A DNA stretch of 64,000 bases from Deltaproteobacteria bacterium (GTDB taxonomy: Bacteria; Desulfobacterota; JAFDED01). The stretch covers positions 3,346 through 67,345 of the forward strand of contig JAFDED010000013.1 in NCBI GenBank assembly GCA_019310535.1, in the 5' to 3' direction. Shown here one piece after another: positions 5,487 through 49,243 of the stretch (position 1 is its first letter; every line of letters starts with the position of its first letter). The position numbers and the translations under genes were made by a program. Under the pieces are notes generated by a model that saw only the letters and a program-made list of their open reading frames with translations, made no database searches and was not told the origin of the DNA.

Positions 5487-7484
5487 TCAAGTACTGCCGT
5501 TAGCTGTGTCCTTTTGCAGGGCCAACTCAATCTCTGTCTTTGTCACCAAGGGGCCCTGGAGCCTTTGAATCGGAACACTGCCCCCAATAATCATGTCGCC
5601 GTGGCCGATAAGATATTCGGCCCCGGTCTGGTCTAAGATAATAGAGCTGTTGCTTGCGGTGGTTACTTTGAGCGCCACTTTTAGCTGCAGGTTTGCCTTG
5701 ATGATAGGTGTCACCACCCTGGCATCAGGCCTCTGGGTGGCGAGGATAAGATGTATGCCCGCCGCCCGTCCCTTTTGTCCGAGACGCTGGATGGATAACT
5801 CCAGTTTCTCCCTGGTAGTTTTGCCACTGATAAGATCGGCGTATTCATCGATCATGACCACCTGGCGGCTCAAGGTTTCGGCACGCTGATTATAGGCGCT
5901 GATATCGGGCGCTCTCATTTTTTCAAACAATCGATACCGTTTCTCCATCTCATCGACGAGTTGAGAGAGTTTTTCCATTGCGGGGTCATTGTCCATCAGC
6001 ACCGGGCCTGACAGATGCGGTAACGACGTGAGATCAGTAAAGGTGATACGTTTGGAGTCAATCAGTGTGATCCGGACGTCTTCAGGTTTTGCGTTAAGGG
6101 CCAGACCAATGGCCGCAGACCTGAGAAAAACACTTTTCCCGCTTCCTGCTGTGCCTCCCACCAGCATGCTCGTCATTGTCGGATCGCTCAGATCGGCCCA
6201 GACAATCGAGCCGTCAATTGACATGCCAATGGGAAACGCAACCTTGGAGTGGGGCCTGTTTCGCTGTCCTTTTCGCCAGACTTCTCCCAATGTCAACGGA
6301 ATCCTGACCTTCCGCGGAACATCAACGCTGACGTAGCCTGCTTGAGGCTGAATTAATGGAGCAACGTGCAACCTCAACGCCACCTGCAGGTTTTCTGCCT
6401 GATTCATTAATTTCCTGACGGTAACACCTTGATCGAGCAGGGGTTTTATCTTTAATCGAATAAATCTCGGCCCGGCTGTATACCCGGAGGGCTCAACGGG
6501 CAACCTCAGGGCTTGGAGGGCATTAACAAGAGAAGCCATGCCTTTTTCTGCTTCTTTAAACGCCTCTTTTGTTTCATGATCGGGCGTGGTTGAGATTTCC
6601 TGGATGCGGGGGCCCCACTCCCCATCGCATTGCGGATCAAAGGGACAAACAGCGCATAGTTGCAAATCAGGAGCGGGCGGCAACGATTTTTTTTGTTTTT
6701 TGGAAACAGCCTCCATGACATCGATGACCCGGCGAAAAAGGTCAGGGAGATTTTGCATGGCACAAGTGATATCTTCCGACGAATAGCGGACTTCGGGTTC
6801 TTCTTCCTCCAGGTAAAAGATCACCCCGCGCGGGGTAATGCCGGTTTTTGTTTTGATCAACCAGCAGTAAAGCACAATCTGCAAAAAATCCTCCTCCGCA
6901 TAACCCGCCTTACGCCCTTTGAATTCCATAACAACCGCCTCACCCGATGCCGCATCAAACAGCAGCGCGTCGTACTTGCCAATGACACGAAACGTCTCAC
7001 CGTCTCCCAGATCGTACACGCTCTTGATTAATTCTTCAGGGTTGTGAAATGTTTTTGCCGGCAAAGTATCGATGTCACCCCTTTGCTCCAGTAAAGCCTT
7101 GCGTAGAAATTGAGCAAGGTGCCGATTCCACAGCTCAAGAGCACGACCCAGTTGCATCACCTGGTCTGCGCTTAATTTTTTGCTCTGCCGCTTTACGACG
7201 GGTAAAAAGAAGTGTTCCTCCAGCAGAGCCAGCAGACCCATTTCCAGGTTTTCTCCGGGGCCGATTAAAAGCGCCTTGAGACGTTGACGGACGGCGGGAC
7301 TGGAGCCGGAGGCCATCATCTTATGAAAGGGAGCGGCGATTTGATCATGAAATAACGTCCCGGGCAGAACGCCCGTCCCGGCAAGTCCTATTTTCCAGGC
7401 GTTTCTGCGGCCGCGCAATTGATAGGCGAGCAATCTCGGACAGCGCTGAAGCAAATGAATCTGGGAAACATTAGCTTTGTGCAT
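5487..7484 (-). CDS. Cas4/RecB-like PD-(D/E)xK Fe-S nuclease fused to an FtsK/SpoIIIE-type DNA translocase ATPase
   Basis: Residues 1-290 carry a Cas4-type motif set: C15 (LLQRCPRLL), D172 (IGKYDALLFD), E187-x-K189 (VVMEFKG), QxxxY (LQIVLY) and CX2CX5C (CAVCPFDPQC). Residues ~330-650 are a collinear FtsK motor: the beta-domain-like segment FIRLKIKP...VSVDVPRK, Walker A GGTAGSGKS (nt 6132-6158), Walker B VVMIDEYADL and LILATQRP. No TM helices and no gamma (KOPS) domain are evident. The start overlaps the upstream gene by 14 nt. Confidence 0.85.
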   Translation of the reverse strand: MHKANVSQIHLLQRCPRLLAYQLRGRRNAWKIGLAGTGVLPGTLFHDQIAAPFHKMMASGSSPAVRQRLKALLIGPGENLEMGLLALLEEHFFLPVVKRQSKKLSADQVMQLGRALELWNRHLAQFLRKALLEQRGDIDTLPAKTFHNPEELIKSVYDLGDGETFRVIGKYDALLFDAASGEAVVMEFKGRKAGYAEEDFLQIVLYCWLIKTKTGITPRGVIFYLEEEEPEVRYSSEDITCAMQNLPDLFRRVIDVMEAVSKKQKKSLPPAPDLQLCAVCPFDPQCDGEWGPRIQEISTTPDHETKEAFKEAEKGMASLVNALQALRLPVEPSGYTAGPRFIRLKIKPLLDQGVTVRKLMNQAENLQVALRLHVAPLIQPQAGYVSVDVPRKVRIPLTLGEVWRKGQRNRPHSKVAFPIGMSIDGSIVWADLSDPTMTSMLVGGTAGSGKSVFLRSAAIGLALNAKPEDVRITLIDSKRITFTDLTSLPHLSGPVLMDNDPAMEKLSQLVDEMEKRYRLFEKMRAPDISAYNQRAETLSRQVVMIDEYADLISGKTTREKLELSIQRLGQKGRAAGIHLILATQRPDARVVTPIIKANLQLKVALKVTTASNSSIILDQTGAEYLIGHGDMIIGGSVPIQRLQGPLVTKTEIELALQKDTANGST

Positions 7485-9588
7485 GAACCCAACTCTTCTT
7501 TAACATGATTAAGACCCCGTCTTTGGACGGTATGACCTCAAAACGATCCCTAAAATTGCCAATGACCGTAAGCATCCTTTCCAGGTCTATGGAAATTCCG
7601 GATTGAATCAACGATTCGACAAGCTTTTGAGAAGTTACCATCATCATGGGCACCGGGCGAAGAATCTCCACCGCCTTTTGGACAACACGGTTATCATCCA
7701 CTGAAGGGCGACTGTGCCGGAAGCTTCTCTGTCCTGTTCCGGAAGGCGTTGCCATGGCCTCATCAAGAATTTGAAATCCTGGATACCGGCCCCCGTGAAG
7801 GCCATCCCGAAGAAAGCCGGCCAGCTCATCGATAGAAACGGGCCTTATACGATTATTGGCGTCGATGATCGTTACATCGTATGAATTAACAGCGTATTTG
7901 AGTAATTCAAGGGCATACCATGTTGCGACTTGCTCATGGTCAAGAAAGATAACATGACCTCCACGTTTTTTGAAATCATGAAGTATTTTGTTTGTAGCCT
8001 GCCACCTGGGAGGGGACGGGAAGGGGCAGCGTTTATCCCTGATATAATAAGCTCTTCCGGAAGCATGGCTTTCCAGAAAGACTATGCCTCTTTTAAGAGC
8101 GGCACTCACGGACGAATGGTGTCGTTCAATATCTATAATAAAGACAGCGGGAACGGGCGGAGAACCTGAGAACTTGATCTTACATTCGAAATCAACATAT
8201 TTTTCCTTGCCCCCAGGACGTCTTAACGATTCGATTTCATATCCGCTTCTGAATGGATTGTTGGTGAGATAAAGCTCCAGAGCGCCTCGCAATCTGGCGC
8301 GATCGGGTTGATAGCGGTCAAGATCGGTCAGGATTATCTCATATTTACTTTCAAACTCATCTTTTATTTTTTCAATGGGGGAGACTGCAGCCGGGCTCTC
8401 ATCAAGTATTTGACTCAATCGTCCGTTGGCCAGCGTGATAACCATCCTTGGACTGTTAAAACTGGTTTTAAAAGTCTTAATTAAATCGTCTTTATCAAAT
8501 GGGAATAAATCGTCAGCCTGATTTTCTCCAAAGACGAATTCCAGGCGGCTCCGAATGATCTCCAGAACTTGCTCCTTAGTACATCCTTTAAGCTGAAACA
8601 TGTTTCCTTCGAGCCTTTGTATTACGTGCACGTTTAATTTCTTTTTAAACGTCTCTTCCCATTGTTGTCCTCTGAAGAAAGCAAGGGGGAGCATTGCTTT
8701 TGCTTCATTCACCAAAAATTCAACCATTTTTCCTAATGCTTTTACCTGCTCGTCCGTTACTAAATTCTCCAATTGATCGAAACAGACAATGAGTGGTTGG
8801 CCGTAACGTGCCAGCAAAAGGCCCAGGGAGATCAGTATATCGTGGGATCGTTGCTCCAGGGCAGCCGCGGAATCATGCAGGCGATCACGCACCTGGAGCA
8901 ATGCGGTGTCCTCTTCATCAAGAACAACACCTTTCAGCCAGCTCACAGCGGCAAACCTTTTCTCCCTGATGCGATATTGAAATAAAACCTTCAGAAACTC
9001 TTTGTCGATCTCGGGGAATTGTTTCATTATCAGTTCGGTGGATTTTGTTTGCATAAGATCAAATGCGTCAGGATGAATTCTTGCCCTGAAAATATATGTT
9101 GGATATTCTCGAAGTTTACCGAGGATGTTTGTAAATTTTTCATCCCTGGTAGAATTATATATTTTTTCGATTAACTCTCTGAAGATTTTACCTAACATTA
9201 CATCAAGCTGAGTGGCGTCAAAAGCCTTTTCTATGGGGCGGCAGAGATTAACCATCACTTCGCGCAGGAGATAGCGATAGGTCTGTTCAGGGTCTTCAAT
9301 AGGCTGAATATACGCGAAAGAAAAGGGAGATTTACCGTGCTTGCCGTAATCCAGTATTCTGCCGATGAGGTGTGTCTTGCCACTGCCCGCTTCTCCGAGA
9401 ACCAGTCCAGCAAAGCGGTCAGCAGGATCTCGTGTTTTTTGACCAATAAGCCGGCAGAGTCCCTCGAAAGCATGTTTATTGATTGAGGTCACATCCAGAT
9501 ATTTTCCCGCCCATGGGTCGCCAGCACTGTTAGAAGCAAAGGGATTTTTCTCCTTTAAGATATCAAGCTTTTCATGAGCTTTCATCAT
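7471..9588 (-). CDS. large P-loop NTPase (AAA/ORC-like) of unknown function
   Basis: 705-aa ORF. Walker A GEAGSGKT (nt 9373-9396) and a Walker B-like LIVCFDQLE about 195 aa downstream. The ~270-aa C-terminal region is unassigned. ATGA overlap with the upstream gene. Visibly AT-rich. Confidence 0.8.
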   Translation of the reverse strand: MMKAHEKLDILKEKNPFASNSAGDPWAGKYLDVTSINKHAFEGLCRLIGQKTRDPADRFAGLVLGEAGSGKTHLIGRILDYGKHGKSPFSFAYIQPIEDPEQTYRYLLREVMVNLCRPIEKAFDATQLDVMLGKIFRELIEKIYNSTRDEKFTNILGKLREYPTYIFRARIHPDAFDLMQTKSTELIMKQFPEIDKEFLKVLFQYRIREKRFAAVSWLKGVVLDEEDTALLQVRDRLHDSAAALEQRSHDILISLGLLLARYGQPLIVCFDQLENLVTDEQVKALGKMVEFLVNEAKAMLPLAFFRGQQWEETFKKKLNVHVIQRLEGNMFQLKGCTKEQVLEIIRSRLEFVFGENQADDLFPFDKDDLIKTFKTSFNSPRMVITLANGRLSQILDESPAAVSPIEKIKDEFESKYEIILTDLDRYQPDRARLRGALELYLTNNPFRSGYEIESLRRPGGKEKYVDFECKIKFSGSPPVPAVFIIDIERHHSSVSAALKRGIVFLESHASGRAYYIRDKRCPFPSPPRWQATNKILHDFKKRGGHVIFLDHEQVATWYALELLKYAVNSYDVTIIDANNRIRPVSIDELAGFLRDGLHGGRYPGFQILDEAMATPSGTGQRSFRHSRPSVDDNRVVQKAVEILRPVPMMMVTSQKLVESLIQSGISIDLERMLTVIGNFRDRFEVIPSKDGVLIMLKKSWVHAQS

Positions 9589-10301
9589 TCATGCCCCCAC
9601 CAGGTCATAGTAAGGTAAAGAATGCCGTTTTCGCCCATAAAAGAATCTTGAATTTCTTTTTCAGTCATTATAGAAGGATCTCCAGTATGGAGTTCAATGG
9701 TATAATCCGCCATCAAATCGGTCAAAACACCATCAAATCGATCCCTGGGCCATTGTAAAAATTCCCGTATTCGATGAATGCGAACAAAACTCCGCCCCTT
9801 GCCAACGTTATCATAGGCTTTTTTGAATGCAGCGCGGTCTGCGGCAGGCCCAACTTTCGGTGCTGTCGGTAGCGGGACTTTATCGGTTATTCTCAGTGAT
9901 GGGGTATGATATTCATTGAAGGTGCAGATAACGGAACCTGATTTCAACAGCTCATTAAGGAGAGAAATGTAAGTCTTTTTAATCATGGGAATATTCTTTC
10001 CCGCCTGTTTTGAGGACAAACCGGGATTTTGTTTGATTTTATTAAAAATGATTTCTTCCAGGGGCATTTTGAAGCCGATATAAGTGGACCTTCCCTTATA
10101 ATCTTGTAATCTACTACCGAAATGAGGCTTAAGTCTTTTAAGCACGGCTGTCGAAGACGATTTTCTCGTAAGACCGCAATGCTTCAATGAATCAGCGGGG
10201 AGCCCCTGTCTAACTTGTGCAACCGTGAGGTAGTCCTGTTTTGTCTTTTTTAAAAGTTTTGAAATTTGCTCTTCAATGTTCGTCAGATCGTCTTTTCCCA
10301 T
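9585..10301 (-). CDS. hypothetical protein, first gene of the three-gene operon (possible winged-helix/DNA-binding; unassigned)
   Basis: 238-aa lysine-rich ORF with a strong AAGGAG Shine-Dalgarno 8 nt upstream of the ATG. Its stop overlaps the next start (ATGA). I recognise no motif. Confidence 0.65.
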   Translation of the reverse strand: MGKDDLTNIEEQISKLLKKTKQDYLTVAQVRQGLPADSLKHCGLTRKSSSTAVLKRLKPHFGSRLQDYKGRSTYIGFKMPLEEIIFNKIKQNPGLSSKQAGKNIPMIKKTYISLLNELLKSGSVICTFNEYHTPSLRITDKVPLPTAPKVGPAADRAAFKKAYDNVGKGRSFVRIHRIREFLQWPRDRFDGVLTDLMADYTIELHTGDPSIMTEKEIQDSFMGENGILYLTMTWWGHE

Positions 10302-14567: not shown

Positions 14568-14588
14568 GGGCGGGGTTTATCCCCGCCC
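14568..14588 (-). terminator. GC hairpin plus T-rich tail, putative intrinsic terminator
   Basis: Minus-strand reading is GGGCGGGG-ATAAA-CCCCGCCC followed by TTATTTCTT, about 80 nt downstream of the rhodanese-fusion stop. It also belongs to the dispersed hairpin family described in the findings. Confidence 0.5.
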
Positions 14589-14668: not shown

Positions 14669-15511
14669 TCAAATCCGTTTTTCCAGCAGATCACCCAACC
14701 GCTCCAGGTGTTTGCGCTCTTCTTCGGCTATGTTTTTGAGGACCTTGCCTACATCCTCGTTCTCCATCCTGCGGGCCATTTTGACGTAGAGATCGTAAGC
14801 GTTTATTTCGAGGGACATGGAGAGATCAAGAAGTTCGACGGCTCCCTTTCCTTTTGCCCAGGCGAGCGCCTCGCCTACGCGGATACCTCCTTCCATCAGG
14901 TCGCCGGCCAGTTCATCCGAGGCGATGGTATTGGGCAACCCGGGCTCGGACCCGGATCCAGCAAGCTCTTTGTATACCCGAACCAAAGATTCCTTGTGGT
15001 GTTCTTCGGCCGCCACCAGGTCATTGAACATGTTTGTGCCCTGGGTATCATCCAGCATTTCCGCAACCCCGGCGTAAAACCTGCGGGATCCCTCTTCCAG
15101 GACCCAGGCCAGGGCCACAAGATCCTCGGCCCGGTCGGCCTGAGAGAAAATCGACATCCCCGCTTCGGGCGCTCCCGTGGCCACATCCCCACTCCAGGCT
15201 TTGATGCCGCCCTCCATGCTGTGTGCATCTTTGATCCCTGCGCTTGATACCATTGCAACAGCCGCCCGGCTGCGGACTCCTATACCTCAATAGGCAATGG
15301 TGGGCTTGTCGGGATCAAGCTCATGCAGGCGCGATGGTAATTCCCCCAGAGGGATCAGCCGGGCGCCGGGCAGATGTCCTTTCTCGTATTCCGCCGGCTG
15401 GCGGACATCCACCAGGTTATAATCCTCGGCTCGCCTTTCCTTCATCAACTTGCGCACTTTATCCGGTGTCCATGTGGATACCGGCTTGAAATAATCAAGA
15501 AATCCCATCAT
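14669..15511 (-). CDS. rhodanese domain (in-frame TGA at the active-site position; putative selenocysteine) fused to a diiron ferritin/rubrerythrin-like domain
   Basis: ORFs 15287-15553 and 14669-15253 are in the same frame, separated only by TGA (15287-15289). The read-through sequence is ...DKPTIAY-[TGA]-GIGVRSRAAVAMVSSAGIKDAHSMEGGIKAW, where the TGA sits at the position of the rhodanese active-site Cys in the C-x4-R loop. The C-terminal half has E / ExxH / E / ExxH (LEEG, AEEHH, LEIN, EERKH). Likely start is the ATG pair at 15511/15508, after GGGAGGG. Confidence 0.75.
15258..15273 (-). promoter_or_regulatory. possible SECIS-like stem-loop downstream of the UGA
   Basis: The mRNA sequence GCAGCC-GGGC-GGCUGU forms a 6-bp stem (one G-U pair) with a G-rich 4-nt loop, starting 13 nt after the UGA. 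It is small compared with textbook bacterial SECIS elements. Confidence 0.3.
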
Positions 15512-15606
15512 TACCCTCCCTGACATCGACCGGCGTCCAAATGTTGACCTCATGTTTTACTGATTATTCGCATAAAACTGGGTCACAGTCTCGTGCAGAA
15601 TGATTA

Positions 15607-16740
15607 TTAACTGGTCCCCTGCTGCATACGTTCACCCGAGACCTGGAAGCGCCTCATGAATTTTCTGTCAATGTAATCCTTCAGGTAAAAGGAAAGCCTT
15701 CCGTTCCACACCCAGTTTTTTTTCCAGAATATTCCCCTCCCGTCTCCCAGGCTGAAAATAAGAAGGTAGGGGCGGTCGGGATCGAAGGGTTCCATATTTC
15801 CACCTTCCAGCGCGGCCATCAGGTTGTGATAGAGGACAGGGTTTTGTCGAACGGCGTAAACTCCCACTTTATTCAGCGGTTTGCTTTCAAGGCTGATACA
15901 GTCGCCGCCGCCGAAGATCTCGGGATAGGCGACGCTCTGAAGATGGGTGTTCACCAGTAGTCCTCTATCGTCGCCCGTGGGCAGCCCCGAATCGCGAAAA
16001 AGGGATGACGGCTTTACTCCTAATGCCAGGATCAGCAGGTCGTAATAAAGCTTCCGTCCGTCGGTCATGACGGCTTGGCCGCTCTCAAAGCGGCGCAGAT
16101 GGGCACCCTCCGCCACCTCAATTCCTCGGGCAGAGAGGGATTCCATTGCCAGACGCCGGGTTTTTTCGGGAAAACGACCAAGCAATCTCCGGCCGGCCAG
16201 GAGCTTGATCTGAGCCTTCCCCCCGAGATCATGAACCAGCCGCCAGATGTTGCCGGAAATTTCAAGCCCTGCGGCACCTCCGCCAACCACCACCAGCCTT
16301 GGAGTTGCCGTCTGTATGAGGTCCATGACAGCCCGTCTGGCCTTATGAAGGTTTTCTATTGGCTTGACCGTAATCATCTTTTCATCCCGTCCCGTCACGG
16401 ATTCCAGCGGGATCTCGCTGCCGGTGTTAAATGAAACGATGTCATAGCCAATCTCATCATTTGAGTCGAGAAAAAGGATGCGTCGATCGGGATCCACCCG
16501 CACAACATTCCCTTCCACAAATGACACTCCCCGGTCTTCCGCCATTTTTTTTATATGAAACCGGATTTCTTCAGGACGGTAAATACCAGAGAGCATCCCC
16601 GGTCCCATGCCTGAATAATAATGATACGGCGCTGAGCTGATCAATGTCACCCGGTGGCCCCGTTCGACAAAATCACCGGCTTTCTTCAGGACGGTAAGAT
16701 GGGCATGCCCACCGCCAACAATGATGAGATGTTTCTTCAT
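15607..16740 (-). CDS. FAD/NAD(P)-dependent pyridine nucleotide-disulfide oxidoreductase family protein
   Basis: N-terminal Rossmann motif LIIVGGGHAH, a second dinucleotide motif VVVGGGAAGLE and a GGGDC motif near the C-terminus. 377 aa. Lies 53 nt upstream of the rhodanese gene on the same strand. Confidence 0.85.
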   Translation of the reverse strand: MKKHLIIVGGGHAHLTVLKKAGDFVERGHRVTLISSAPYHYYSGMGPGMLSGIYRPEEIRFHIKKMAEDRGVSFVEGNVVRVDPDRRILFLDSNDEIGYDIVSFNTGSEIPLESVTGRDEKMITVKPIENLHKARRAVMDLIQTATPRLVVVGGGAAGLEISGNIWRLVHDLGGKAQIKLLAGRRLLGRFPEKTRRLAMESLSARGIEVAEGAHLRRFESGQAVMTDGRKLYYDLLILALGVKPSSLFRDSGLPTGDDRGLLVNTHLQSVAYPEIFGGGDCISLESKPLNKVGVYAVRQNPVLYHNLMAALEGGNMEPFDPDRPYLLIFSLGDGRGIFWKKNWVWNGRLSFYLKDYIDRKFMRRFQVSGERMQQGTS

Positions 16741-17193: not shown

Positions 17194-19383
17194 ATGTTAA
17201 GATTTATATTGAAGGAAAATGATGGGAAGGAACGAGTAATTATTATTGAGAAGGATGTTGTACGGATCGGCAAATCCGAGGCAAATGACCTGATACTTTC
17301 ACAGCCCGGTGTCTCAAGGCGCCATGCTATTGTGAGACGCACCGGAGGCAAAGTCGTTATAGAGGATCTGGTCAGCACCAATGGCACTTTCGTCAACGGC
17401 AAACGCATCTCCGCTCCCCAGGAATTAAACATCGGCGATCTTGTCTTTATATCCGGCTATACTCTTCAACTGGATATGTTCTCCTCCGTTGAAGAACCCA
17501 CTCAGTCCATCGAACGGGAAGAAGCGGAAAAGCCCGCGCATCGGGCGCCGGGAGAGGAGGAGAAACCCACACTGGAGGCGACGACGGCCGATAGCGGCAT
17601 TGGTGGAGAAGATATGGAGGAGCCTTCGAGGGAGCCTCTGGACGAAGGGGTTAAGACCTTCGGCATTCCAAGACAGGAAATGGAAGAATGGGCGAAACCC
17701 GGGGAGGAGGAAGATGGTTTAAAACCGCAGGAAGAGCCTATTCTTAAGGATACATTCGAGAAACCCCTCCAGGAGGAAGCCGAGACAGCATCCCTGAAAG
17801 AAGGGGCTCCAGAGCGCGAGCTTATCGAGGAGGAAGAAATTCCATTCATCCCCCTGCGTGAGGAAGACATGTTAGATGCCCAGGTTCCAGAGCCGCAGCA
17901 AATGCAATGGGAGGATACCCTTGATACGCTGGAAAGTCCCCTGAAGAGAGAAGAAGTCAGGGAAGAGGAAGAGAAACCCGATCTTGTTGAAGAGCAAGCA
18001 GCCACCGTTTCCCTGCCTGAAGAAAGTGTGAAGCAGGAGGCTCTCGAGGAGATGGTTTCCACCGAGTTCGAAGCACTCAGCCCCGCCGTTTCCCCACCGA
18101 AAGAAGATGCCCCGTTGGAAGAAGATATGGGAAGGGTGGCAAGCCGTATTTATCGGCACCTTCTGGATCAACCCGAGTTATATTGGCGTTTTCTGGAGCC
18201 CGGCCAGGATGTCAGCAACAGACAGATAGCCTTCCTGCATGCGATCAGGAGCCTGATGGACGATATGGGTCTTGAGATTCCTCCCCATATCCCCCGGGAA
18301 GAACTGAGTCAGCGCATGATGGAAGAGGCAGTGCTGCCGGGAATCGTGGAGCAATTGATGGCCGATCCCGATAATCGCTCCATTATGATAAACGGAAAAG
18401 AGCGGGTATTTATTGAACGGGGCGGAAAGATGGAGCGAACAGAGTTTCGCTTCAGTTGCGACGATGCGGTGATGGCGGTTGCCTCCTGGATGCTGATGCG
18501 GGTTGGGAAACACATAGATTCCTCCAATCCCATTGTGGACGCCCGGTTGGAAAATGGGGCGGAAATCCATGTTATAATCCCTCCAATGGCCTTTTCCGGC
18601 CCCTGCCTGACCATTCGAAAGCCGGGAGGTCTGCTGTTTACTATGGCCGATCTGGTCGAAAAGGAATCTTTGTCCAAGGATATGGCTCAATTATTAAAAA
18701 TTAGCGTTGAGAACGGTATGAACATCCTGATTACCGGGACTCAAGGGTCCGGTAAAACCACTCTCCTCATGGCGCTGGCCTCTCTCATCCCGGAAGAAGA
18801 GCGCGTTATCACCATTGAGGATTGGCCCGAACTCAGTCTTCCACAGGAGAACGTTGTGAGCCTTCTCACCTGTCCCCCGGAGGTCAGTGGTCAGGGCGGG
18901 GTCACAGTCATGGATCTGGTGCGCAGCTCGTTGAAGATGCGGCCGGATAGGGTGGTGCTGGGGGGGTGCTCGAGCGAAGAAGTGATTGAGATTTTTCAGG
19001 CCGGCCGCGGCGGTATCCGGGGATTGCTGGCGGCCGTCCATGTAAACTCACCCCGCCAAGCCTTAGTTCAGTTGAACCTGTCCGCGGGCCTCGGCACGAA
19101 CCTTTCCGTCATGCTCCCCTGGATCGCCTCTATGGTGGACCTCATCGTCCAATGCGTTCAGATGTCTGATGGAAGGCGAAAGGTGACCAGAATCTGCGAG
19201 GTTGCTGACTCTGGTGACGAGCCCTTTACCTTGCGCGATATCTTTCGGTTTGAGTCCAGCGGATTCGATAAGGAGACCAGCTTTCTGGGAAGTTTTGTCC
19301 CCCAGAATGTGGTTCCCCGTTTTATTCAAGATTTGGAGATGCGCGGAGTGCCCGTGGAACGAGAAATGTTTCAGAAGCTTTAA
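17194..19383 (+). CDS. FHA domain / acidic low-complexity linker / CpaF(TadA)-type secretion ATPase fusion
   Basis: N-terminal FHA domain (VVRIGKSEANDLIL...VSRRHA...STNGTFVNG). A Glu-rich linker of ~210 aa (nt ~17482-18123). A C-terminal domain collinear with CpaF/VirB11-class ATPases (Walker A GTQGSGKTT; TIEDWPEL; RPDRVVLGG). Confidence 0.9.
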   Translation: MLRFILKENDGKERVIIIEKDVVRIGKSEANDLILSQPGVSRRHAIVRRTGGKVVIEDLVSTNGTFVNGKRISAPQELNIGDLVFISGYTLQLDMFSSVEEPTQSIEREEAEKPAHRAPGEEEKPTLEATTADSGIGGEDMEEPSREPLDEGVKTFGIPRQEMEEWAKPGEEEDGLKPQEEPILKDTFEKPLQEEAETASLKEGAPERELIEEEEIPFIPLREEDMLDAQVPEPQQMQWEDTLDTLESPLKREEVREEEEKPDLVEEQAATVSLPEESVKQEALEEMVSTEFEALSPAVSPPKEDAPLEEDMGRVASRIYRHLLDQPELYWRFLEPGQDVSNRQIAFLHAIRSLMDDMGLEIPPHIPREELSQRMMEEAVLPGIVEQLMADPDNRSIMINGKERVFIERGGKMERTEFRFSCDDAVMAVASWMLMRVGKHIDSSNPIVDARLENGAEIHVIIPPMAFSGPCLTIRKPGGLLFTMADLVEKESLSKDMAQLLKISVENGMNILITGTQGSGKTTLLMALASLIPEEERVITIEDWPELSLPQENVVSLLTCPPEVSGQGGVTVMDLVRSSLKMRPDRVVLGGCSSEEVIEIFQAGRGGIRGLLAAVHVNSPRQALVQLNLSAGLGTNLSVMLPWIASMVDLIVQCVQMSDGRRKVTRICEVADSGDEPFTLRDIFRFESSGFDKETSFLGSFVPQNVVPRFIQDLEMRGVPVEREMFQKL

Positions 19384-34519: not shown

Positions 34520-35612
34520 TCAGTGGGTCAACAGGTACGCCTGGATGAATTGATCCAGTTCTCCGTCCAATACAGCATCCACATTACCTTGTTCCAATTG
34601 GGTCCGGTGATCCTTCACCATGCGGTAAGGATGCAACACGTACGAGCGGATTTGGCTCCCGAATCCGATGGATTTCTTATTGCGATGGGCCTCCTCCCTG
34701 CTTTCTCTTTTTTTCTTTTCCTGTTCTTCATACAGGCGAGAACGCAGTATCCTGAGAGCCATAGCCCTGTTCTTGTGTTGCGAGCGTTCATTTTGACACT
34801 GGACAACTATTCCCGTCGGGAGGTGCGTGATTCGGACCGCGGAATCGGTTTTGTTCACGTGCTGGCCACCCGCTCCGCTTGAGCGGTAGGTATCGACTCG
34901 AAGATCCGCCTCGTCAATCTCAATCACGATCTCTTCGTCAACTTCCGGAATCACAAAAACTGAAGCAAAGGAAGTATGCCGCCTCTTGCCGGTATCGAAA
35001 GGAGAGATGCGAATCAGGCGGTGAATGCCAACCTCCGCGGCAAGCAAACCGTAGGCATAATCCCCCTCCACGGTAAAGGTGACAGATTTGATGCCGGCTT
35101 CCTGCCCGGGCAAAATGTCGGTAATCTGAGTCCTATAGCCTCTGCGCTCTGCCCATCGCAGGTACATGCGCAAAAGCATCTCTGTCCAGTCTTGCGCCTC
35201 GGTCCCGCCCTCACCGGACTGGATGGTAACGAAGGCGTTATTGATGTCGTTCTCCCCGGAAAGCATGCGCTTGAATTCCATGTCAGCGATGTCTTGTTCC
35301 AGGGTGGACAATTTCTGATTTGCCTCCTCCAGGAGTTCAGGGTCTTGCTCTTCCCGGGTCAGCTCAAGGAGAATCTGGGCGTCTTCCAGTTTTCCATTCT
35401 CCTCCCTCCATCGTTCGATTTCTGTAAGAAGGCGTTTTTTCTCCTTCAGGATTTTCTGTGCTTCCTGGGGGTCGTCCCAGAAATCCGGGCTGGCAGAGAG
35501 CTTCTCCAGCGCCTGAACTCTTTTTTCTTTCTCGTCCAGGTCAAAGATGGCTCCTTAAGGCAAATAGTTTCTCCTTGAGCGTGGAAAAATTGGCCTGCAG
35601 TTCTTGTGTCAT
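34520..35612 (-). CDS. prfB: peptide chain release factor 2 (requires a +1 frameshift)
   Basis: ATG 35612 opens a 23-codon frame (MTQELQANFSTLKEKLFALRSHL) that ends at UGA 35541-35543. The +1 frame continues as DLDEKEKRVQALEK... into the 263-aa ORF, which carries the SPF and GGQ motifs. Confidence 0.93.
35540..35556 (-). promoter_or_regulatory. prfB: programmed +1 ribosomal frameshift site of prfB
   Basis: The mRNA reads AGGAGC CAU CUU UGA C: an internal SD-like AGGAG, a 3-nt spacer, the CUU slippery codon and UGA followed by C. This matches the classical RF2 autoregulatory site. Confidence 0.9.
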
Positions 35613-45741: not shown

Positions 45742-47856
45742 TTACCGCTTCGGTATTTGCCGGACAGCCTCCTGGATCAGATCACGGGTGGCTTTGGCCA
45801 GCGCCTTTGCGTACTCGATATTATGCAATCCGTTGAATCCTCCCAGGAGCTTCATGTTTTGTTCGGCTCGGATCAGAAGATTCCGGGATTGAATGGTGTT
45901 GATCTTTTTGATGGAAGCCCTTTCAACAAGGGCGCTGGCGGTTTTTAACTCCTCCTCCATCCCTCCAAGGAAGCCGGCGGCCTCTTTCCTCCATTGCATG
46001 ACAAGCCGGCTGTAATTCTGCTCGGGGTGGCATTCATCGCAAGTGCCGGCAATCCCTTTCAGGGTGGTTGGTTCTCCCTCCACCACCTGGGTGTGGCAAT
46101 CGGTACAGTTCATCGTGTCCATCATAGCGCTTGGTATTTCCTTGACACCAATGCCGGATTTTCCGGCAAAGATATCGGCAACCTCCGTGTGGCAATCCTG
46201 ACAGCTCACCTCTCCCGCACCCTCACCGTGATGGCATGTGTTGCAATTCTTGAAGTAGGTTATGCCGTGGTCCTGCCCGCCGCCATGGCATTCCATGCAA
46301 GCCATGCCGCTGTCTTGAACGTGATCCGCGTGCGGGAATGCAGCCTGTCGCAGCTTCACCACTTTGGTCTCGGCGTCCGCATGACACAGGCTGGTGCAGT
46401 TTGCTTCCACCAATGTGATGTTCTCGGGCACGTAACCGGCAATAATAAGTGATTTGGCCTCCTCGGCCTTGCGGTTGGCAATGGTCAGAAGCCTCAGAGC
46501 ATAATCAATATTGTGGTGCCCCCGGCCGTTGAGCACAAAGGAGAAGTTGAATCGAGCCTCGCTGAGTAATCGTTGCGCGTATCGGTATCCCGCCCGGCTT
46601 TTTTCTTCCTGTTTAACGCCGTACAGGGCTTGTTGGGCGCTGTAAATCCTCTGGCTGGTGTCATTCTCCAACCTGGCCATCACCTCTTTCCAGCGCTGAA
46701 GCATCCTGTCGTAACCTGGCCCATGGCATCGAATGCATGCCTGGCCCATGTCCATCCTGAGTCCGTCTTCGCTGAACAGATCGGTCCCGGGATGAGTTTC
46801 CTGATGCATGTGGCACGAGGCGCAGTCCACGTTGGCCAGATACATTCGGCTGGGCTGGTCGTCAACATCAATACCACCGGTGCCCCTGTACATCTCGCGC
46901 GGCCCCATGTGCTGGCGCCTGGCATGACACACCAGGCAGCTCTGTTCGAAATTCACCAGCGTGGGGGCTTTTATCATCCGGTGCTGGATTTCCTGATGGC
47001 AACGGTAGCATTCTACCTTGCGCTCGGTAACATGGTTGCGGTGGAGAATATCCGATGTATATCTGGTTTCGAGCCGTTCAGGCTCGCTGTGGCACTCTAC
47101 GCACTTCTTCCAGTCAGCCTTGCCGTCCCCCTGAACGATGTCGACGTGGCAGACCTGGCACTGTATTCCGTATCCCACATAGCGGCCATGGTAGAATTTC
47201 CGGCCCTGAATGTAAATTTCCTCGGGCAAGTCCTTGTGGCACAGCGTGCATCTGGACAGGTACAATTCGTGGGGTGCCTCTGCTTTGTCTTCCTCAGGCT
47301 TGAAGTGGCAGATGAAGCAGTCACTCTCGCTCACGGTCAGGTGTTTGCCCTGGACGATCTGGCCGTGACAGGTGGTGCAGCGCAGCTTCTTGCCGCGGCG
47401 AAGTTGCTCCAGGTGATTTGAATGGCTGAAGCGCACGGACTTGAATATGCGGTCGTCCTTAAGCTTTTCCCTGGGATGGCATTGCAAGCAACTTTCATCG
47501 CTGATTTCCGCGTGGAATTTACCCGGTGTCTTGCCCGTAACAAAGTAAACAAGGGAAACCTGTCCATCAGTCCACTTGCCCCTGAGGTGGTTCAGGAAGC
47601 CGGGTTTATAATGGCATGCCACGCAGGTCACCATGTTATGACTGGACACTTTCCACGAATCCACGTAAGGCTTCATGTTATGGCACAGGCTGCAAAATGC
47701 CGGTGTTTCACTGATCTTGTATGCAAAAGCTCCCATAATGATAAAGAGGACAAAACAGATGCCCGAGAAGGCCCAGAAGCCTTTGCGATGTTTTTGATAG
47801 CCACTGCTGACGGCCTGAAGCGAAGCAGTAAGGAAATCCCGCATAGCTCTGTACAT
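45742..47856 (-). CDS. membrane-anchored multiheme c-type cytochrome with a NapC/NirT-like N-terminal module
   Basis: One N-terminal TM helix. 17 CxxCH motifs plus one CxxxCH (CTSLCH). The first ~190 aa are arranged like tetraheme NapC/NirT/NrfH quinol dehydrogenases. Confidence 0.9.
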   Translation of the reverse strand: MYRAMRDFLTASLQAVSSGYQKHRKGFWAFSGICFVLFIIMGAFAYKISETPAFCSLCHNMKPYVDSWKVSSHNMVTCVACHYKPGFLNHLRGKWTDGQVSLVYFVTGKTPGKFHAEISDESCLQCHPREKLKDDRIFKSVRFSHSNHLEQLRRGKKLRCTTCHGQIVQGKHLTVSESDCFICHFKPEEDKAEAPHELYLSRCTLCHKDLPEEIYIQGRKFYHGRYVGYGIQCQVCHVDIVQGDGKADWKKCVECHSEPERLETRYTSDILHRNHVTERKVECYRCHQEIQHRMIKAPTLVNFEQSCLVCHARRQHMGPREMYRGTGGIDVDDQPSRMYLANVDCASCHMHQETHPGTDLFSEDGLRMDMGQACIRCHGPGYDRMLQRWKEVMARLENDTSQRIYSAQQALYGVKQEEKSRAGYRYAQRLLSEARFNFSFVLNGRGHHNIDYALRLLTIANRKAEEAKSLIIAGYVPENITLVEANCTSLCHADAETKVVKLRQAAFPHADHVQDSGMACMECHGGGQDHGITYFKNCNTCHHGEGAGEVSCQDCHTEVADIFAGKSGIGVKEIPSAMMDTMNCTDCHTQVVEGEPTTLKGIAGTCDECHPEQNYSRLVMQWRKEAAGFLGGMEEELKTASALVERASIKKINTIQSRNLLIRAEQNMKLLGGFNGLHNIEYAKALAKATRDLIQEAVRQIPKR

Positions 47857-48148: not shown

Positions 48149-49243
48149 CTATTTCTTGTGAAATCCTTTGGCATACTTGGCCGCCCAGTTCGCGCTTCGG
48201 CTTTTGTGGCAGTGCAAGCATGCCACCTCCAGTGTCACGTAGCCGGTGCCCCACTCCTTACCCTTTGCATCCTTGTACGTCAGCTTTGCCTTGGGGTCCA
48301 CGGAGATGGCGAACACGTGGGTTCGTATATCGCCGGAGTAATCATCATATTTGGTGGCGCTTTTTGTGCCCAGCGGCATGTGGCAGTCAATGCATACCAC
48401 GGTCTGATGGGGCATGGGGGTTTTCTCCAGGGATTCAGCCTCCTCGGCGTGGCAGGAGGCGCAGTCAACGACAATGTGCCGGGCAGATTGATGGGGGTTA
48501 TGACACTCGATGCACTCCATCTTGGCCTTCTCTTTGTTGCGCGAACCCTTGAGCTCGTTGTACTGCTCGTGGTGTCTGATCAGGCCCTTGGAGGCCATAA
48601 TCTTGCCATTCAGTCCACCCCGATTGTGGCATTTGCCGCACAATTCAGCGCTTTTATCGACCTTGACCCCTTCCTTTGTCTCCTTGCCCTTGATGTTCAG
48701 CGCCACATGCTCGGCCGCCGGGCCGTGGCATTCCTCGCACTGAATCCCGGGAAATACCCACGTCCCTATCAGCCCGGGCCTGCCTTCCTGAAAGCCTTCT
48801 TTAGAGTATCCCGTGGTGTGGCAGCGGCCGCAATTATACGGCTTTTTCTCTCCAGGGTGATAGTTGCTCCAGGTCCCGTCCTCGAAGTTGAACTGTGTCG
48901 GCGCTTTCTCGCCTTTTTTGTTGGTGGTGATAATGAATCCATCCTGATCGATAAAGCGGATCTTTTTATGGGTGCCCCCAATGGTGTAACTGATGTCCGA
49001 CCAGGCCCAGCCAGGGGGAAGCGGCGCCTGCCATTCCGGCTCTCTGCCGTCGATTTTGCGCAGCTTGAAGGGGTGCCCGGAGGAGTGCCACTGGTTGTAT
49101 TCTTTCTGATGGCACGAGATACAGGACTGGGAACCGGCGTAATCCGGGGCGCCGACAGCCTCCGCACTCAAGGGAAACCCCGCAGATAACAATAATCCGC
49201 ACAATAACAATACATTAAGGACAAACAGCCGAGATGTATTCAT
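48149..49243 (-). CDS. periplasmic octaheme c-type cytochrome
   Basis: Signal peptide (LSAEA/VG) and 8 CxxCH motifs (CISCH, CGRCH, CEECH, CGKCH, CIECH, CASCH, CIDCH, CLHCH). Confidence 0.9.
   Translation of the reverse strand: MNTSRLFVLNVLLLCGLLLSAGFPLSAEAVGAPDYAGSQSCISCHQKEYNQWHSSGHPFKLRKIDGREPEWQAPLPPGWAWSDISYTIGGTHKKIRFIDQDGFIITTNKKGEKAPTQFNFEDGTWSNYHPGEKKPYNCGRCHTTGYSKEGFQEGRPGLIGTWVFPGIQCEECHGPAAEHVALNIKGKETKEGVKVDKSAELCGKCHNRGGLNGKIMASKGLIRHHEQYNELKGSRNKEKAKMECIECHNPHQSARHIVVDCASCHAEEAESLEKTPMPHQTVVCIDCHMPLGTKSATKYDDYSGDIRTHVFAISVDPKAKLTYKDAKGKEWGTGYVTLEVACLHCHKSRSANWAAKYAKGFHKK

What the first reader, a model, noticed from the sequence alone, without database searches (positions are those of the whole stretch)
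14669..15511. In-frame TGA at the rhodanese active-site position: putative selenocysteine rhodanese fused to a diiron ferritin-like domain
Two adjacent ORFs are in the same frame and separated only by TGA (15287-15289). Read-through gives ...LDPDKPTIAY-U-GIGVRSRAAVAMVSSAGIKDAHSMEGGIKAW. This places the stop codon at the position of the catalytic Cys in the rhodanese C-x4-R loop, and it completes an otherwise truncated rhodanese fold. A small G-rich hairpin starts 13 nt downstream (15258-15273). The C-terminal 190 aa keep an E / ExxH / E / ExxH pattern typical of rubrerythrin/ferritin-like diiron four-helix bundles. I recall Cys-to-Sec replacement being reported for rhodanese-like sulfurtransferases in surveys of prokaryotic selenoproteomes, but I do not know of a description of the fusion to a diiron domain. 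Automated annotation would split or truncate this gene.
Basis: partly seen in the sequence, partly recalled or inferred. Interest (0 to 1): 0.66.

Follow-up and report, generated by a model that had tools for sequence, protein, structure and literature searches.

The report
Selenocysteine rhodanese fused to diiron domain
The in-frame TGA is real and almost certainly encodes selenocysteine at the active site of a rhodanese fused to a ferritin-like diiron domain. The same recoded gene occurs in at least 200 other anaerobe genomes and metagenome contigs, and gene callers split it in two here and do not call it whole anywhere in the database searched.

Summary

- **The gene.** On the minus strand, one 279-codon frame (15508 to 14669) is interrupted only by TGA at 15287-15289. 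Read through, it gives a complete rhodanese domain plus a rubrerythrin-like four-helix domain with E / ExxH / E / ExxH.
- **The codon.** The TGA falls on the catalytic Cys column, which is Cys in 116 of 119 full-length homologues.
- **Conservation of the TGA.** A degenerate DNA pattern found the same TGA in at least 120 species-representative genomes (Nitrospirota, Desulfobacterota and others). It also appeared in 83 of 120 metagenome hits. In nearly all of these the frame stays open for about 205 more codons.
- **SECIS evidence.** Sec forms, but not Cys forms, freeze synonymous sites in a 5-6 bp hairpin with a G-G/U loop that starts 13 nt after the UGA. This is what a bacterial SECIS would look like.
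- **Ordinary stops.** TGA is otherwise the commonest stop codon in the window, and prfB (RF2) with its frameshift site is present.
- **Partner gene.** An NDH-2-like flavoprotein, closest to the family found fused to SelD, is a recurrent co-directional neighbour.
- **Not shown.** No sel genes could be seen, because only the contig is available, and the enzyme's chemistry is inferred.

Rhodanese selenoproteins are a known kind. I found no description of this fusion subfamily.

The parts
14669..15508 (-). Complete selenoprotein gene: 279 codons (73 + Sec + 205) plus the final stop. An alternative ATG lies at 15511.
   Evidence: Translation. Start matches homologues and the JGI call. Full-length homologues are about 279 aa.
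15287..15289 (-). UGA read as selenocysteine, codon 74, at the catalytic position of the rhodanese loop U-G-I-G-V-R-S.
   Evidence: Column is Cys in 116/119 homologues. TGA sits at this column in >=120 genomes and in 83/120 metagenome hits. Same TGA in a second sample.
15258..15273 (-). SECIS-like hairpin GCAGCC-GGGC-GGCUGU, starting 13 nt after the UGA and encoded by codons R79-S80-R81-A82-A83-V84.
   Evidence: Fold. Synonymous sites are frozen in 195 Sec forms but not in 24 Cys forms. Sec forms fold more stably. 88.5% of cells are paired, with few compensatory changes.
15185..15463 (-). Rhodanese domain (residues 16-108), which the TGA splits.
   Evidence: PF00581 at 75.9 bits. PDB sequence and fold matches to rhodanese domains.
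14672..15130 (-). Ferritin-like (erythrin / rubrerythrin-like) four-helix diiron domain, residues 127-279. Ligands are E138, E168/H171, E234 and E264/H267. There is no rubredoxin domain.
   Evidence: PF02915 at 47.4 bits. MbfA N-terminal domain match at 1.3e-9. Ligand columns are invariant apart from H171, which is nearly invariant. Fold match to TM1526, 1vjx.
15607..16740 (-). Upstream co-directional gene for a 377-aa NDH-2-like FAD/NAD(P)H flavoprotein, closest to TIGR03169 'N-terminal to SelD'. The gap to the selenoprotein start is 98 nt.
   Evidence: Pfam and NCBIfam. Best PDB matches are NDH-2 and FSP1. Adjacent in 31/71 Sec loci with both flanks and next to Cys form P0085.
14568..14588 (-). 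Terminator-like hairpin (8 G-C pairs, T-rich tail) about 80 nt after the stop codon. It probably ends the two-gene unit.
   Evidence: This is a consensus match only.

Best explanation
**Recoding (comparative evidence).** This is one gene for a 279-residue selenoprotein. The ribosome reads UGA at codon 74 as selenocysteine. I infer that SelB carrying Sec-tRNA(Sec) is recruited by the short hairpin that starts 13 nt downstream. That hairpin has a 5-6 bp stem (GCAGC(C)/(G)GCUGY) and an apical loop that begins G-G or G-U.

**Protein (shown by sequence).** The product is a single-domain rhodanese whose catalytic nucleophile is a selenolate in the loop U-x-x-G-x-R-S. It is fused to a ferritin-like diiron four-helix bundle with a full set of carboxylate and histidine ligands.

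**Chemistry (inferred, about 0.35).**
- The selenolate accepts a sulfane sulfur, or a selenium atom, as a Se-S or Se-Se adduct.
- The adjacent NDH-2-like NAD(P)H flavoprotein supplies electrons to this two-domain protein.
- Together the pair would act as an NAD(P)H-driven reductase or carrier for persulfide-type or selenium-type substrates, with the diiron centre as the second redox site.

The confidence value given below refers to the recoding claim, not to the chemistry.
For: **One gene.**
- There is a single frame with one internal TGA, and the rhodanese HMM spans it.
- There are 769 homologues; 119 of the 120 listed are ~279-aa two-domain proteins.
- The column is Cys in 116/119 of them.

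**Conserved recoding.**
- The frame stays open for 180 or more codons (about 200 in most) after the TGA in 110 of the 121 sequences; most of the rest run off contig ends.
- It occurs in 83 of 120 metagenome hits when the pattern allowed TGA, TGC or TGT.
- A second sample has the same TGA, and its only 3 differences in the 401 bases compared, all upstream of the TGA, are synonymous.

**RNA signal, 195 Sec forms against 24 Cys forms.**
- Codon +5 is CGC in 180, +6 is AGC in 189, +7 is CGG or CGT in 187, and +9 is GCT in 186.
- Flanking third positions carry only 0.02-0.25 bit.
- In Cys forms, codon +9 is GCT in only 3/24 (Fisher 2.5e-19).
- Hairpin energy has a median of -11.7 against -8.4 kcal/mol (p = 7e-7). 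About half of the 15 Sec forms that break the consensus stem instead fold a shifted hairpin of 5-7 bp (7 bp in five of them).
- A few compensatory pairs are seen, U-A and A-U.

**UGA is otherwise a stop.** It ends 21 of 45 genes, and prfB has its CUU UGA C frameshift site.

**Lineage.** A near-identical strain is labelled Deltaproteobacteria. That group is described as selenoprotein-rich in PMC1794560 and PMC1976440.

**Partner gene.** The flavoprotein is adjacent and co-directional in 31/71 Sec loci and 3/7 Cys loci. PDB holds rhodanese domains fused to flavoprotein persulfide reductases and to an iron persulfide dioxygenase.
Against: - No selA, selB, selC or selD is visible on the parts of the 77.8-kb contig that I could read.
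- There is no experimental evidence of selenium incorporation.
- The hairpin alone is no more stable than shuffles of the window sequence, matches no Rfam family, and shows very little covariation because it is almost invariant.
- Part of its pairing follows from the conserved R-S-R-A-A peptide, and some Cys forms fold similarly.
- For the chemistry, the flavoprotein has no redox-active cysteine: its only Cys is in GGGDC. It is absent from more than half of the loci. No sulfur or selenium genes are conserved nearby.
Confidence: 0.87

Rival explanations
1. The TGA is a true stop. The locus is a pseudogene, or two separate genes: a 73-aa rhodanese fragment and a 194-aa ferritin-like protein that starts at the ATG at 15253.
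For: This is how the JGI gene caller annotated it. An ATG lies 12 codons after the TGA.
Against: - The stop would cut the rhodanese fold just before its active-site loop.
- The Met 12 codons downstream is not conserved; that position is V, I, L or M.
- The same TGA, with an intact and conserved downstream frame, is present in >=200 sequences from several phyla.
- All homologues listed are single proteins.
Confidence: 0.03
2. The TGA is a sequencing or assembly error for TGC or TGT.
For: Nothing specific. One homologue has TGG at this codon, so single-base variants of the codon do exist.
Against: Two independently assembled samples that differ at 3 nearby synonymous sites both carry TGA. Hundreds of other assemblies do as well.
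Confidence: 0.01
3. The UGA is read through, but as Trp, Cys or Gly rather than selenocysteine. This would happen by near-cognate suppression or an altered genetic code.
For: The Sec machinery was not seen. One relative has Trp (TGG) at the column.
Against: - UGA ends 21 of 45 genes in the window.
- RF2, with its UGA-dependent frameshift site, is encoded here.
- The column is Cys, the usual Sec counterpart, in homologues.
- A hairpin conserved only in the TGA forms argues for a dedicated signal.
Confidence: 0.05
4. Same selenoprotein, different job. The pair would be a rubrerythrin-type peroxide or oxygen reductase of anaerobes. Electrons would pass from NAD(P)H to the flavoprotein (in the role of NADH:rubredoxin oxidoreductase) and then to the diiron site. 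The Sec-rhodanese domain would take the place of the rubredoxin domain, or act as the peroxide-reactive residue. No sulfane sulfur would be involved.
For: - The diiron ligands are those of rubrerythrin-like proteins.
- The neighbour is a ~380-aa Pyr_redox_2 flavoprotein with weak matches to NorW and to a rubredoxin reductase.
- The hosts are mostly anaerobes.
- Most selenoproteins are described as redox enzymes (PMC9312934).
Against: - A single selenol with no partner Cys is a poor one-electron relay; only one Cys/Sec column is conserved.
- The rhodanese loop keeps the sulfurtransferase signature, six residues with Arg and Ser.
- No peroxide-stress genes are conserved nearby.
Confidence: 0.3

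Closest known systems
Rhodanese-like selenoproteins ('rhodanese-related sulfurtransferase', COG0607 / PF00581; forms 1-5 in the reviews PMC9312934 and PMC13188914)
   Same: Sec replaces the catalytic Cys of a single-domain rhodanese. The U-x-x-G motif matches forms 2 and 4 in the review table. Such proteins were reported as abundant in deltaproteobacterial symbionts.
   Different: Neither review mentions a rubrerythrin or ferritin-like domain. I could not retrieve the example accessions to see whether they are this fusion. No NCBIfam model matched it as a selenoprotein.
Rubrerythrin / erythrin (PF02915), for example the N-terminal domain of MbfA and TM1526 (PDB 1vjx)
   Same: A four-helix bundle with E, ExxH, E, ExxH diiron ligands.
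   Different: There is no rubredoxin domain and there are no Cys clusters. An N-terminal rhodanese domain is attached instead. An extra invariant E206-G207 and D239 are of unknown role.
Flavoprotein-rhodanese persulfide reductases (Npsr 3nta, CoADR-RHD 3icr, CoA-persulfide reductase 8a56)
   Same: A pyridine-nucleotide-disulfide-family flavoprotein works with a rhodanese domain, and the rhodanese domains match in sequence and fold.
   Different: Here the two are separate genes. The flavoprotein is NDH-2-like and lacks the redox-active Cys. A diiron domain is present.
Persulfide dioxygenase-rhodanese fusion (BpPRF, PDB 5ve3)
   Same: A rhodanese domain fused to a non-haem iron enzyme. It is among the best fold matches for the rhodanese part.
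   Different: The iron domain there is a mononuclear metallo-beta-lactamase fold, not a diiron helix bundle.
TIGR03169 'N-terminal to SelD' NADH oxidoreductase (COG1252), predicted to make the SelD substrate (PMC2432076)
   Same: It is the best NCBIfam match of the neighbouring gene, at 1.3e-81 over the full length.
   Different: The score of 274.8 is below the 310 cutoff. The gene is neither fused to nor next to selD here.
Bacterial SECIS elements (E. coli fdhF type; from my own knowledge)
   Same: A hairpin just downstream of UGA whose apical loop starts with G-G or G-U. 27 Sec forms have the closing pair C-G around a GGUC loop.
   Different: The conserved stem is only 5-6 bp, with no conserved lower stem and no bulged U. 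SelB binding is untested.

Membership tests
Bacterial selenoprotein gene (UGA recoded to Sec) | In-frame UGA aligned with Cys in homologues | tested here: met
   116/119 homologues have Cys at the column.
Bacterial selenoprotein gene (UGA recoded to Sec) | UGA conserved in orthologues, with a conserved reading frame downstream | tested here: met
   >=120 genomes and 83 metagenome contigs. The frame stays open for about 200 codons after the TGA in most complete cases.
Bacterial selenoprotein gene (UGA recoded to Sec) | Hairpin shortly after the UGA with G in the apical loop, conserved beyond what the protein requires | tested here: met
   Synonymous sites at codons +5, +6, +7 and +9 are frozen only in Sec forms. 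The hairpin is more stable in Sec forms.
Bacterial selenoprotein gene (UGA recoded to Sec) | Compensatory base changes in the hairpin | tested here: inconclusive
   Only 4 cells changed on both sides. The stem is almost invariant. Several variants use a shifted alternative hairpin.
Bacterial selenoprotein gene (UGA recoded to Sec) | selA, selB, selC (tRNA-Sec) and selD in the same genome | not testable with these tools
   Only one 77.8-kb contig is available. No tRNA was found, and no sel genes were seen among the ORFs or flanks.
Bacterial selenoprotein gene (UGA recoded to Sec) | Selenium found in the protein | not testable with these tools
   Needs 75Se labelling or mass spectrometry.
Rhodanese domain (PF00581) sulfurtransferase | Domain model above the gathering score | tested here: met
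   75.9 bits against 22.2, residues 16-108.
Rhodanese domain (PF00581) sulfurtransferase | Six-residue active-site loop C-X4-R | tested here: met
   U-G-I-G-V-R-S. G+3, R+5 and S+6 are present in 119-120 of 120 sequences.
Rhodanese-like selenoprotein forms 2/4 of the reviews (UxxG) | Sec at the catalytic position within a UxxG motif | tested here: met
   U-G-I-G. Motif taken from the review table.
Rhodanese-like selenoprotein forms 2/4 of the reviews (UxxG) | Same protein family as the example accessions MBM9537886.1 and MCY3690685.1 | not testable with these tools
   The accessions cannot be fetched, and no supplement is held for the review.
Rubrerythrin (PF02915) | Four-helix domain model above the gathering score, with E / ExxH / E / ExxH ligands | tested here: met
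   47.4 bits against 22.8. E138, E168, E234, E264 and H267 are invariant, and H171 is nearly invariant.
Rubrerythrin (PF02915) | C-terminal rubredoxin-like Cys4 iron domain | tested here: not met
   The protein ends with the fourth helix. Its only Cys/Sec is the rhodanese one. It is therefore erythrin-like, not a canonical rubrerythrin.
TIGR03169 (N-terminal-to-SelD oxidoreductase), for the neighbouring gene | Score at or above the curated cutoff | tested here: not met
   274.8 bits against a cutoff of 310.
NADH-dependent persulfide reductase (Npsr / CoADR-RHD) | Flavoprotein with a redox-active Cys, fused to the rhodanese domain | tested here: not met
   The genes are separate. The flavoprotein's only Cys is in GGGDC. 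Its best PDB matches are NDH-2 and FSP1.

The most novel reading that the evidence does not exclude
The NDH-2-like flavoprotein and the Sec-rhodanese-diiron protein together form an undescribed, widespread two-component selenoenzyme of anaerobic Nitrospirota and Desulfobacterota. It would reduce or traffic chalcogen species, either persulfide or polysulfide or selenium on its way to SelD. The selenium link is suggested by the flavoprotein's kinship to the SelD-fused oxidoreductase family.
Probability: 0.25. Interest if true: 0.7.

Novelty: new member of a known kind. Interest (0 to 1): 0.42.

Why it matters
Rhodanese selenoproteins have been listed in selenoproteome surveys since 2004, but none has a known reaction.

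- **A defined subfamily.** This work marks out one large subfamily with a fixed architecture: Sec-rhodanese plus a diiron bundle. It has a recognisable SECIS-like hairpin and a recurrent NAD(P)H flavoprotein partner.
- **An annotation gap.** No full-length Sec form appeared among the top database hits, although Sec forms are as similar to the query as the Cys forms that did appear. A family model with the Sec position marked would repair hundreds of split genes.
- **A testable pair.** The flavoprotein and the Cys or Sec protein give a concrete system for asking what selenium adds to sulfurtransferase chemistry. They also allow a test of whether the SelD-linked oxidoreductase family handles selenium.

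Tried and rejected
- **Pattern error.** My first genome scan had two extra N's, which put the pattern out of frame, and it found nothing. I corrected it after testing on the window.
- **Rfam.** Nothing was found at gathering scores for the whole window. A permissive search around the UGA gave only a chance lncRNA match.
- **RNAalifold.** On 195 Sec forms it returned almost no structure because the stem is short. I judged the hairpin by synonymous-site conservation and per-sequence folding instead.
- **Structure prediction.** I modelled the Cys homologue P0010. Coordinates are not exposed, so the distance from the Cys to the diiron site could not be measured.
- **Other recoded genes.** A scan for in-frame TGA with at least 50 codons on both sides gave 68 candidates. 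Only this one is credible.
- **Sec machinery.** I looked for sel genes in the window ORFs and in 8 kb more of the contig. I looked for tRNA-Sec in the window and in all fetched loci. Nothing was found.
- **Neighbours.** Clustering the neighbouring ORFs of 240 loci gave no conserved partner other than the flavoprotein.
- **Literature.** Searches for the rhodanese-rubrerythrin fusion found no description of it. No supplement is held for the 2026 review.
Full report
**1. The observation**

The feature is on the minus strand. Translating 15553..14669 gives a single frame with one internal stop, TGA at 15289..15287. The context is ...LDPDKPTIAY-*-GIGVRSRAAVAMVSSAGIKDAHSMEGGIKAW.... The ORF list shows the two pieces as 15287..15553 (88 aa) and 14669..15253 (194 aa).

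With Cys in place of the stop, Pfam finds a Rhodanese domain (PF00581, 3.7e-21, residues 16-108) that runs across the TGA. It also finds Rubrerythrin (PF02915, 47.4 bits, cutoff 22.8) in the C-terminal part. NCBIfam adds a match to the ferritin-like N-terminal domain of MbfA at 1.3e-9.

It is a six-pair stem, GCAGCC/GGCUGU, with a GGGC loop, and it starts 13 nt after the UGA. Homologues and the JGI gene call place the start at the second ATG, 15508 (MGFLDYF...), giving 279 codons.

**2. Is the TGA real?**

- The window is part of a 77.8-kb JGI metagenome contig.
- A contig assembled from a second sample carries the same TGA.
- In the 401 bases compared, that contig differs at only three positions, all upstream of the TGA. 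All three are third-codon positions and synonymous: CGA/CGG, GGA/GGG and CCA/CCT.

This excludes a one-off error. It also shows purifying selection on the part upstream of the TGA.

**3. Homologues**

A protein search with the read-through sequence found 769 proteins at E <= 1e-5. Apart from the window's own 194-aa fragment, the 119 others listed are single proteins of about 270-290 aa carrying both domains, at 43-57% identity. Some are labelled by JGI as 'rhodanese-related sulfurtransferase/rubrerythrin'. The fusion is therefore a large existing family.

In their alignment the TGA column is Cys in 116 of 119. The exceptions are one Trp, one Gly and one Ser. The Trp is a genuine TGG codon.

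Across 120 sequences E138, E168, E234, E264 and H267 are invariant and H171 is nearly so. This is the E / ExxH / E / ExxH set. No other Cys column is conserved.

**4. The TGA is conserved in many genomes**

I wrote a degenerate DNA pattern for T-x-x-Y-TGA-x-x-G-x-R-S-(19 codons)-G-G-x-x-x-W-x-G. The first attempt contained a frame error, which I corrected after testing the pattern on the window.

- **Genomes.** They are MAGs of Nitrospirota/Thermodesulfovibrionia and many Desulfobacterota lineages: Syntrophales, Desulfobulbaceae, Desulfotignum, Desulfosarcina, Desulfofustis and Syntrophobacterales. Deferrimicrobia and one Acidobacteriota MAG are also present.
- **Downstream frame.** In 110 of 121 sequences, window included, the frame stays open for 180 or more codons after the TGA, about 200 in most. 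Most of the rest run off contig ends.
- **Metagenomes.** With TGH (TGA, TGC or TGT) at the column, the first 120 rows were 83 TGA, 22 TGC and 15 TGT. About ten of the Cys rows are short rhodaneses without the second domain.
- **Separate groups.** Sec and Cys forms mostly fall into separate groups. The nearest relative is of the other form for 4% of Sec forms and 12% of Cys forms. The window protein is a divergent member, at best 59% identical to a Sec form.

**5. The RNA signal**

The region is ungapped, so codons can be compared directly. I compared 195 distinct Sec-form sequences with 24 Cys forms that have the long C-terminal domain.

| Codon after UGA | Sec forms (n = 195) | Cys forms (n = 24) |
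|---|---|---|
| +5 (Arg) | CGC in 180 | CGC in 14 |
| +6 (Ser) | AGC in 189 | AGC in 17 |
| +7 (Arg) | CGG or CGT in 187 | CGG in 9, CGT in 0 |
| +9 (Ala) | GCT in 186 | GCT in 3 (Fisher 2.5e-19) |

- The neighbouring Ala codons +8 and +10 use all four synonyms.
- Third positions outside the element carry only 0.02-0.25 bit. This controls for the relatedness of the sequences.
- The frozen bases form the pairs G16-C31, C17-G30, A18-U29, G19-C28 and C20-G27, counting from the U of UGA as 0. C21-G26 is added in 43% of sequences.
- The loop starts G-G or G-U. 37 sequences have the window's C-GGGC-G and 27 have C-GGUC-G.
- A18-U29 pairs in 95% of Sec forms and 17% of Cys forms.
- Folding nt +12..+38 gives a median of -11.7 kcal/mol for Sec forms and -8.4 for Cys forms (Mann-Whitney p = 7e-7).
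- Of the 15 Sec forms that break the consensus stem, about half fold a shifted hairpin instead. Five of them form the 7-bp hairpin GGAGCCG / YGU / RGCGGCUC, and two more form 5-6 bp variants.
- Formal pair counting gives 88.5% paired cells and only a few compensatory changes, U-A at 18/31 and A-U at 22/27. The stem hardly varies.

Position, size and loop agree with what I know of bacterial SECIS elements. No Rfam family matches.

**6. UGA is otherwise a stop here**

- TGA ends 21 of 45 confident genes in the window.
- The window also encodes RF2 (prfB, 35612..34520, minus strand), with the classical CUU UGA C +1 frameshift site preceded by AGGAGC.

A reassigned genetic code is therefore very unlikely.

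A strain with a near-identical flavoprotein is labelled 'Deltaproteobacteria bacterium' in NCBI. Papers describe that group as rich in selenoproteins, rhodanese-related ones among them (PMC1794560; PMC1976440).

The Sec machinery itself could not be checked. There is no tRNA in the window and no sel genes among the window ORFs. None appear in the further contig stretches read, and there is no tRNA-Sec in any fetched locus.

**7. Context**

The gene upstream on the same strand (16740..15607, with a 98-nt gap) encodes a 377-aa FAD/NAD(P)H flavoprotein.

- Its best NCBIfam match is TIGR03169, 'N-terminal to SelD', at 1.3e-81 and 274.8 bits, below the 310 cutoff.
- Its best solved relatives are type II NADH dehydrogenases and FSP1.
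- Its only Cys is in GGGDC.
- Among 71 Sec-form loci with enough DNA on both sides, 31 have this flavoprotein directly adjacent and co-directional: 23 upstream and 8 downstream. So do 3 of 7 Cys-form loci and the Cys form P0085.
- No other neighbour is conserved.
- A terminator-like hairpin follows the selenoprotein gene at 14588..14568.

Zhang et al. proposed that the SelD-fused NADH oxidoreductase reduces a selenium compound for SelD (PMC2432076).

**8. Structure**

AlphaFold2 on the Cys homologue P0010, using a 119-sequence alignment, gave pLDDT 88.8 and pTM 0.87. The model has an alpha/beta rhodanese domain, a lower-confidence linker, and a helical bundle.

Foldseek against the PDB matched the two domains separately.

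- **Rhodanese part:** the metallo-beta-lactamase/rhodanese protein 3tp9, the persulfide dioxygenase-rhodanese fusion 5ve3-5, CoADR-RHD and Npsr.
- **Helical part:** TM1526 (1vjx).
- **Both domains together:** no solved structure covers both.

**9. How it most likely works**

*Shown by comparative evidence:* one gene, with a conserved UGA at the catalytic Cys column, and a hairpin conserved beyond coding need only when the codon is UGA.

*Inferred:* SelB-dependent Sec insertion.

*Inferred with much less support (about 0.35):* the selenolate in the sulfurtransferase-type loop carries a sulfane sulfur or selenium adduct. The NAD(P)H flavoprotein feeds electrons to the protein, with the diiron site as the second redox centre.

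The main functional rival (about 0.3) is a rubrerythrin-like peroxide or oxygen reductase, in which the flavoprotein plays the part of the rubredoxin reductase.

**10. Comparison and novelty**

Sec at the rhodanese catalytic position is an established class. Two reviews list five 'forms', and forms 2 and 4 have the same UxxG motif. Neither review mentions a rubrerythrin or ferritin-like domain, and my literature searches found no description of the fusion. I could not retrieve the example accessions to see whether they are this subfamily.

No full-length Sec form appeared in the protein database, although such forms would have ranked among the top hits. No NCBIfam model marks it as a selenoprotein.

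I therefore file it as a new member of a known kind. The subfamily is well defined but undescribed in the papers I searched, and its function is unknown.

Noticed in passing
window 34520-35612 (minus strand); frameshift site at 35541-35546: prfB (release factor 2) is split over two frames by the classical programmed +1 frameshift site CUU UGA C, preceded by the Shine-Dalgarno-like AGGAGC. The ORF list shows only the downstream 263-aa part.
   Followed up: partly
window 5487-10301 (minus strand): Three overlapping genes with no obvious housekeeping role. One encodes 665 aa with a PD-(D/E)XK/Cas4-like nuclease plus an FtsK/SpoIIIE ATPase. One encodes 705 aa with an AAA_16/KAP P-loop NTPase. One encodes 238 aa with no Pfam match. 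This may be a defence or mobile-element module.
   Followed up: partly
L003 435-1274 (protein P0002): The closest full-length homologue in the protein database (55% identity) has a genuine TGG (Trp) codon at the catalytic Cys/Sec column, one base from TGA. It could be an inactive copy, a recent change from TGA, or an error.
   Followed up: partly
window protein residues 98-105 and 205-217 (about 15194-15217 and 14858-14896): The motif M-E-G-G-I-[KR]...A-W occurs twice: at the end of the rhodanese domain, and in the insert between helices B and C of the diiron domain. In the second copy E206 and G207 are invariant, and G208, A214 and W217 are nearly so. This may be an internal repeat or a contact element.
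   Followed up: no
L246 6890-7705 (also L247, L248): In the widespread Cys form P0059, seen on 24 or more contigs, the gene directly downstream on the same strand encodes a ZIP-family metal permease rather than the flavoprotein. This hints at a link to iron or zinc.
   Followed up: no
L056, L087, L156 (Sec forms) and L215 (TGT form): In a few loci the frame closes only 79-131 codons after the Sec/Cys codon although the contig continues. These may be decayed copies or frameshift errors.
   Followed up: no
window 45742-47856 and 48149-49243 (minus strand): Two large multihaem c-type cytochromes with many CxxCH motifs lie side by side. This fits a metal- or sulfur-respiring anaerobe.
   Followed up: no
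window 17194-19383 (plus strand): A 729-aa protein has an N-terminal FHA domain, a ~250-residue highly acidic Glu/Pro-rich linker, and a type II secretion (T2SSE) ATPase domain. It is transcribed divergently from the flavoprotein gene.
   Followed up: no
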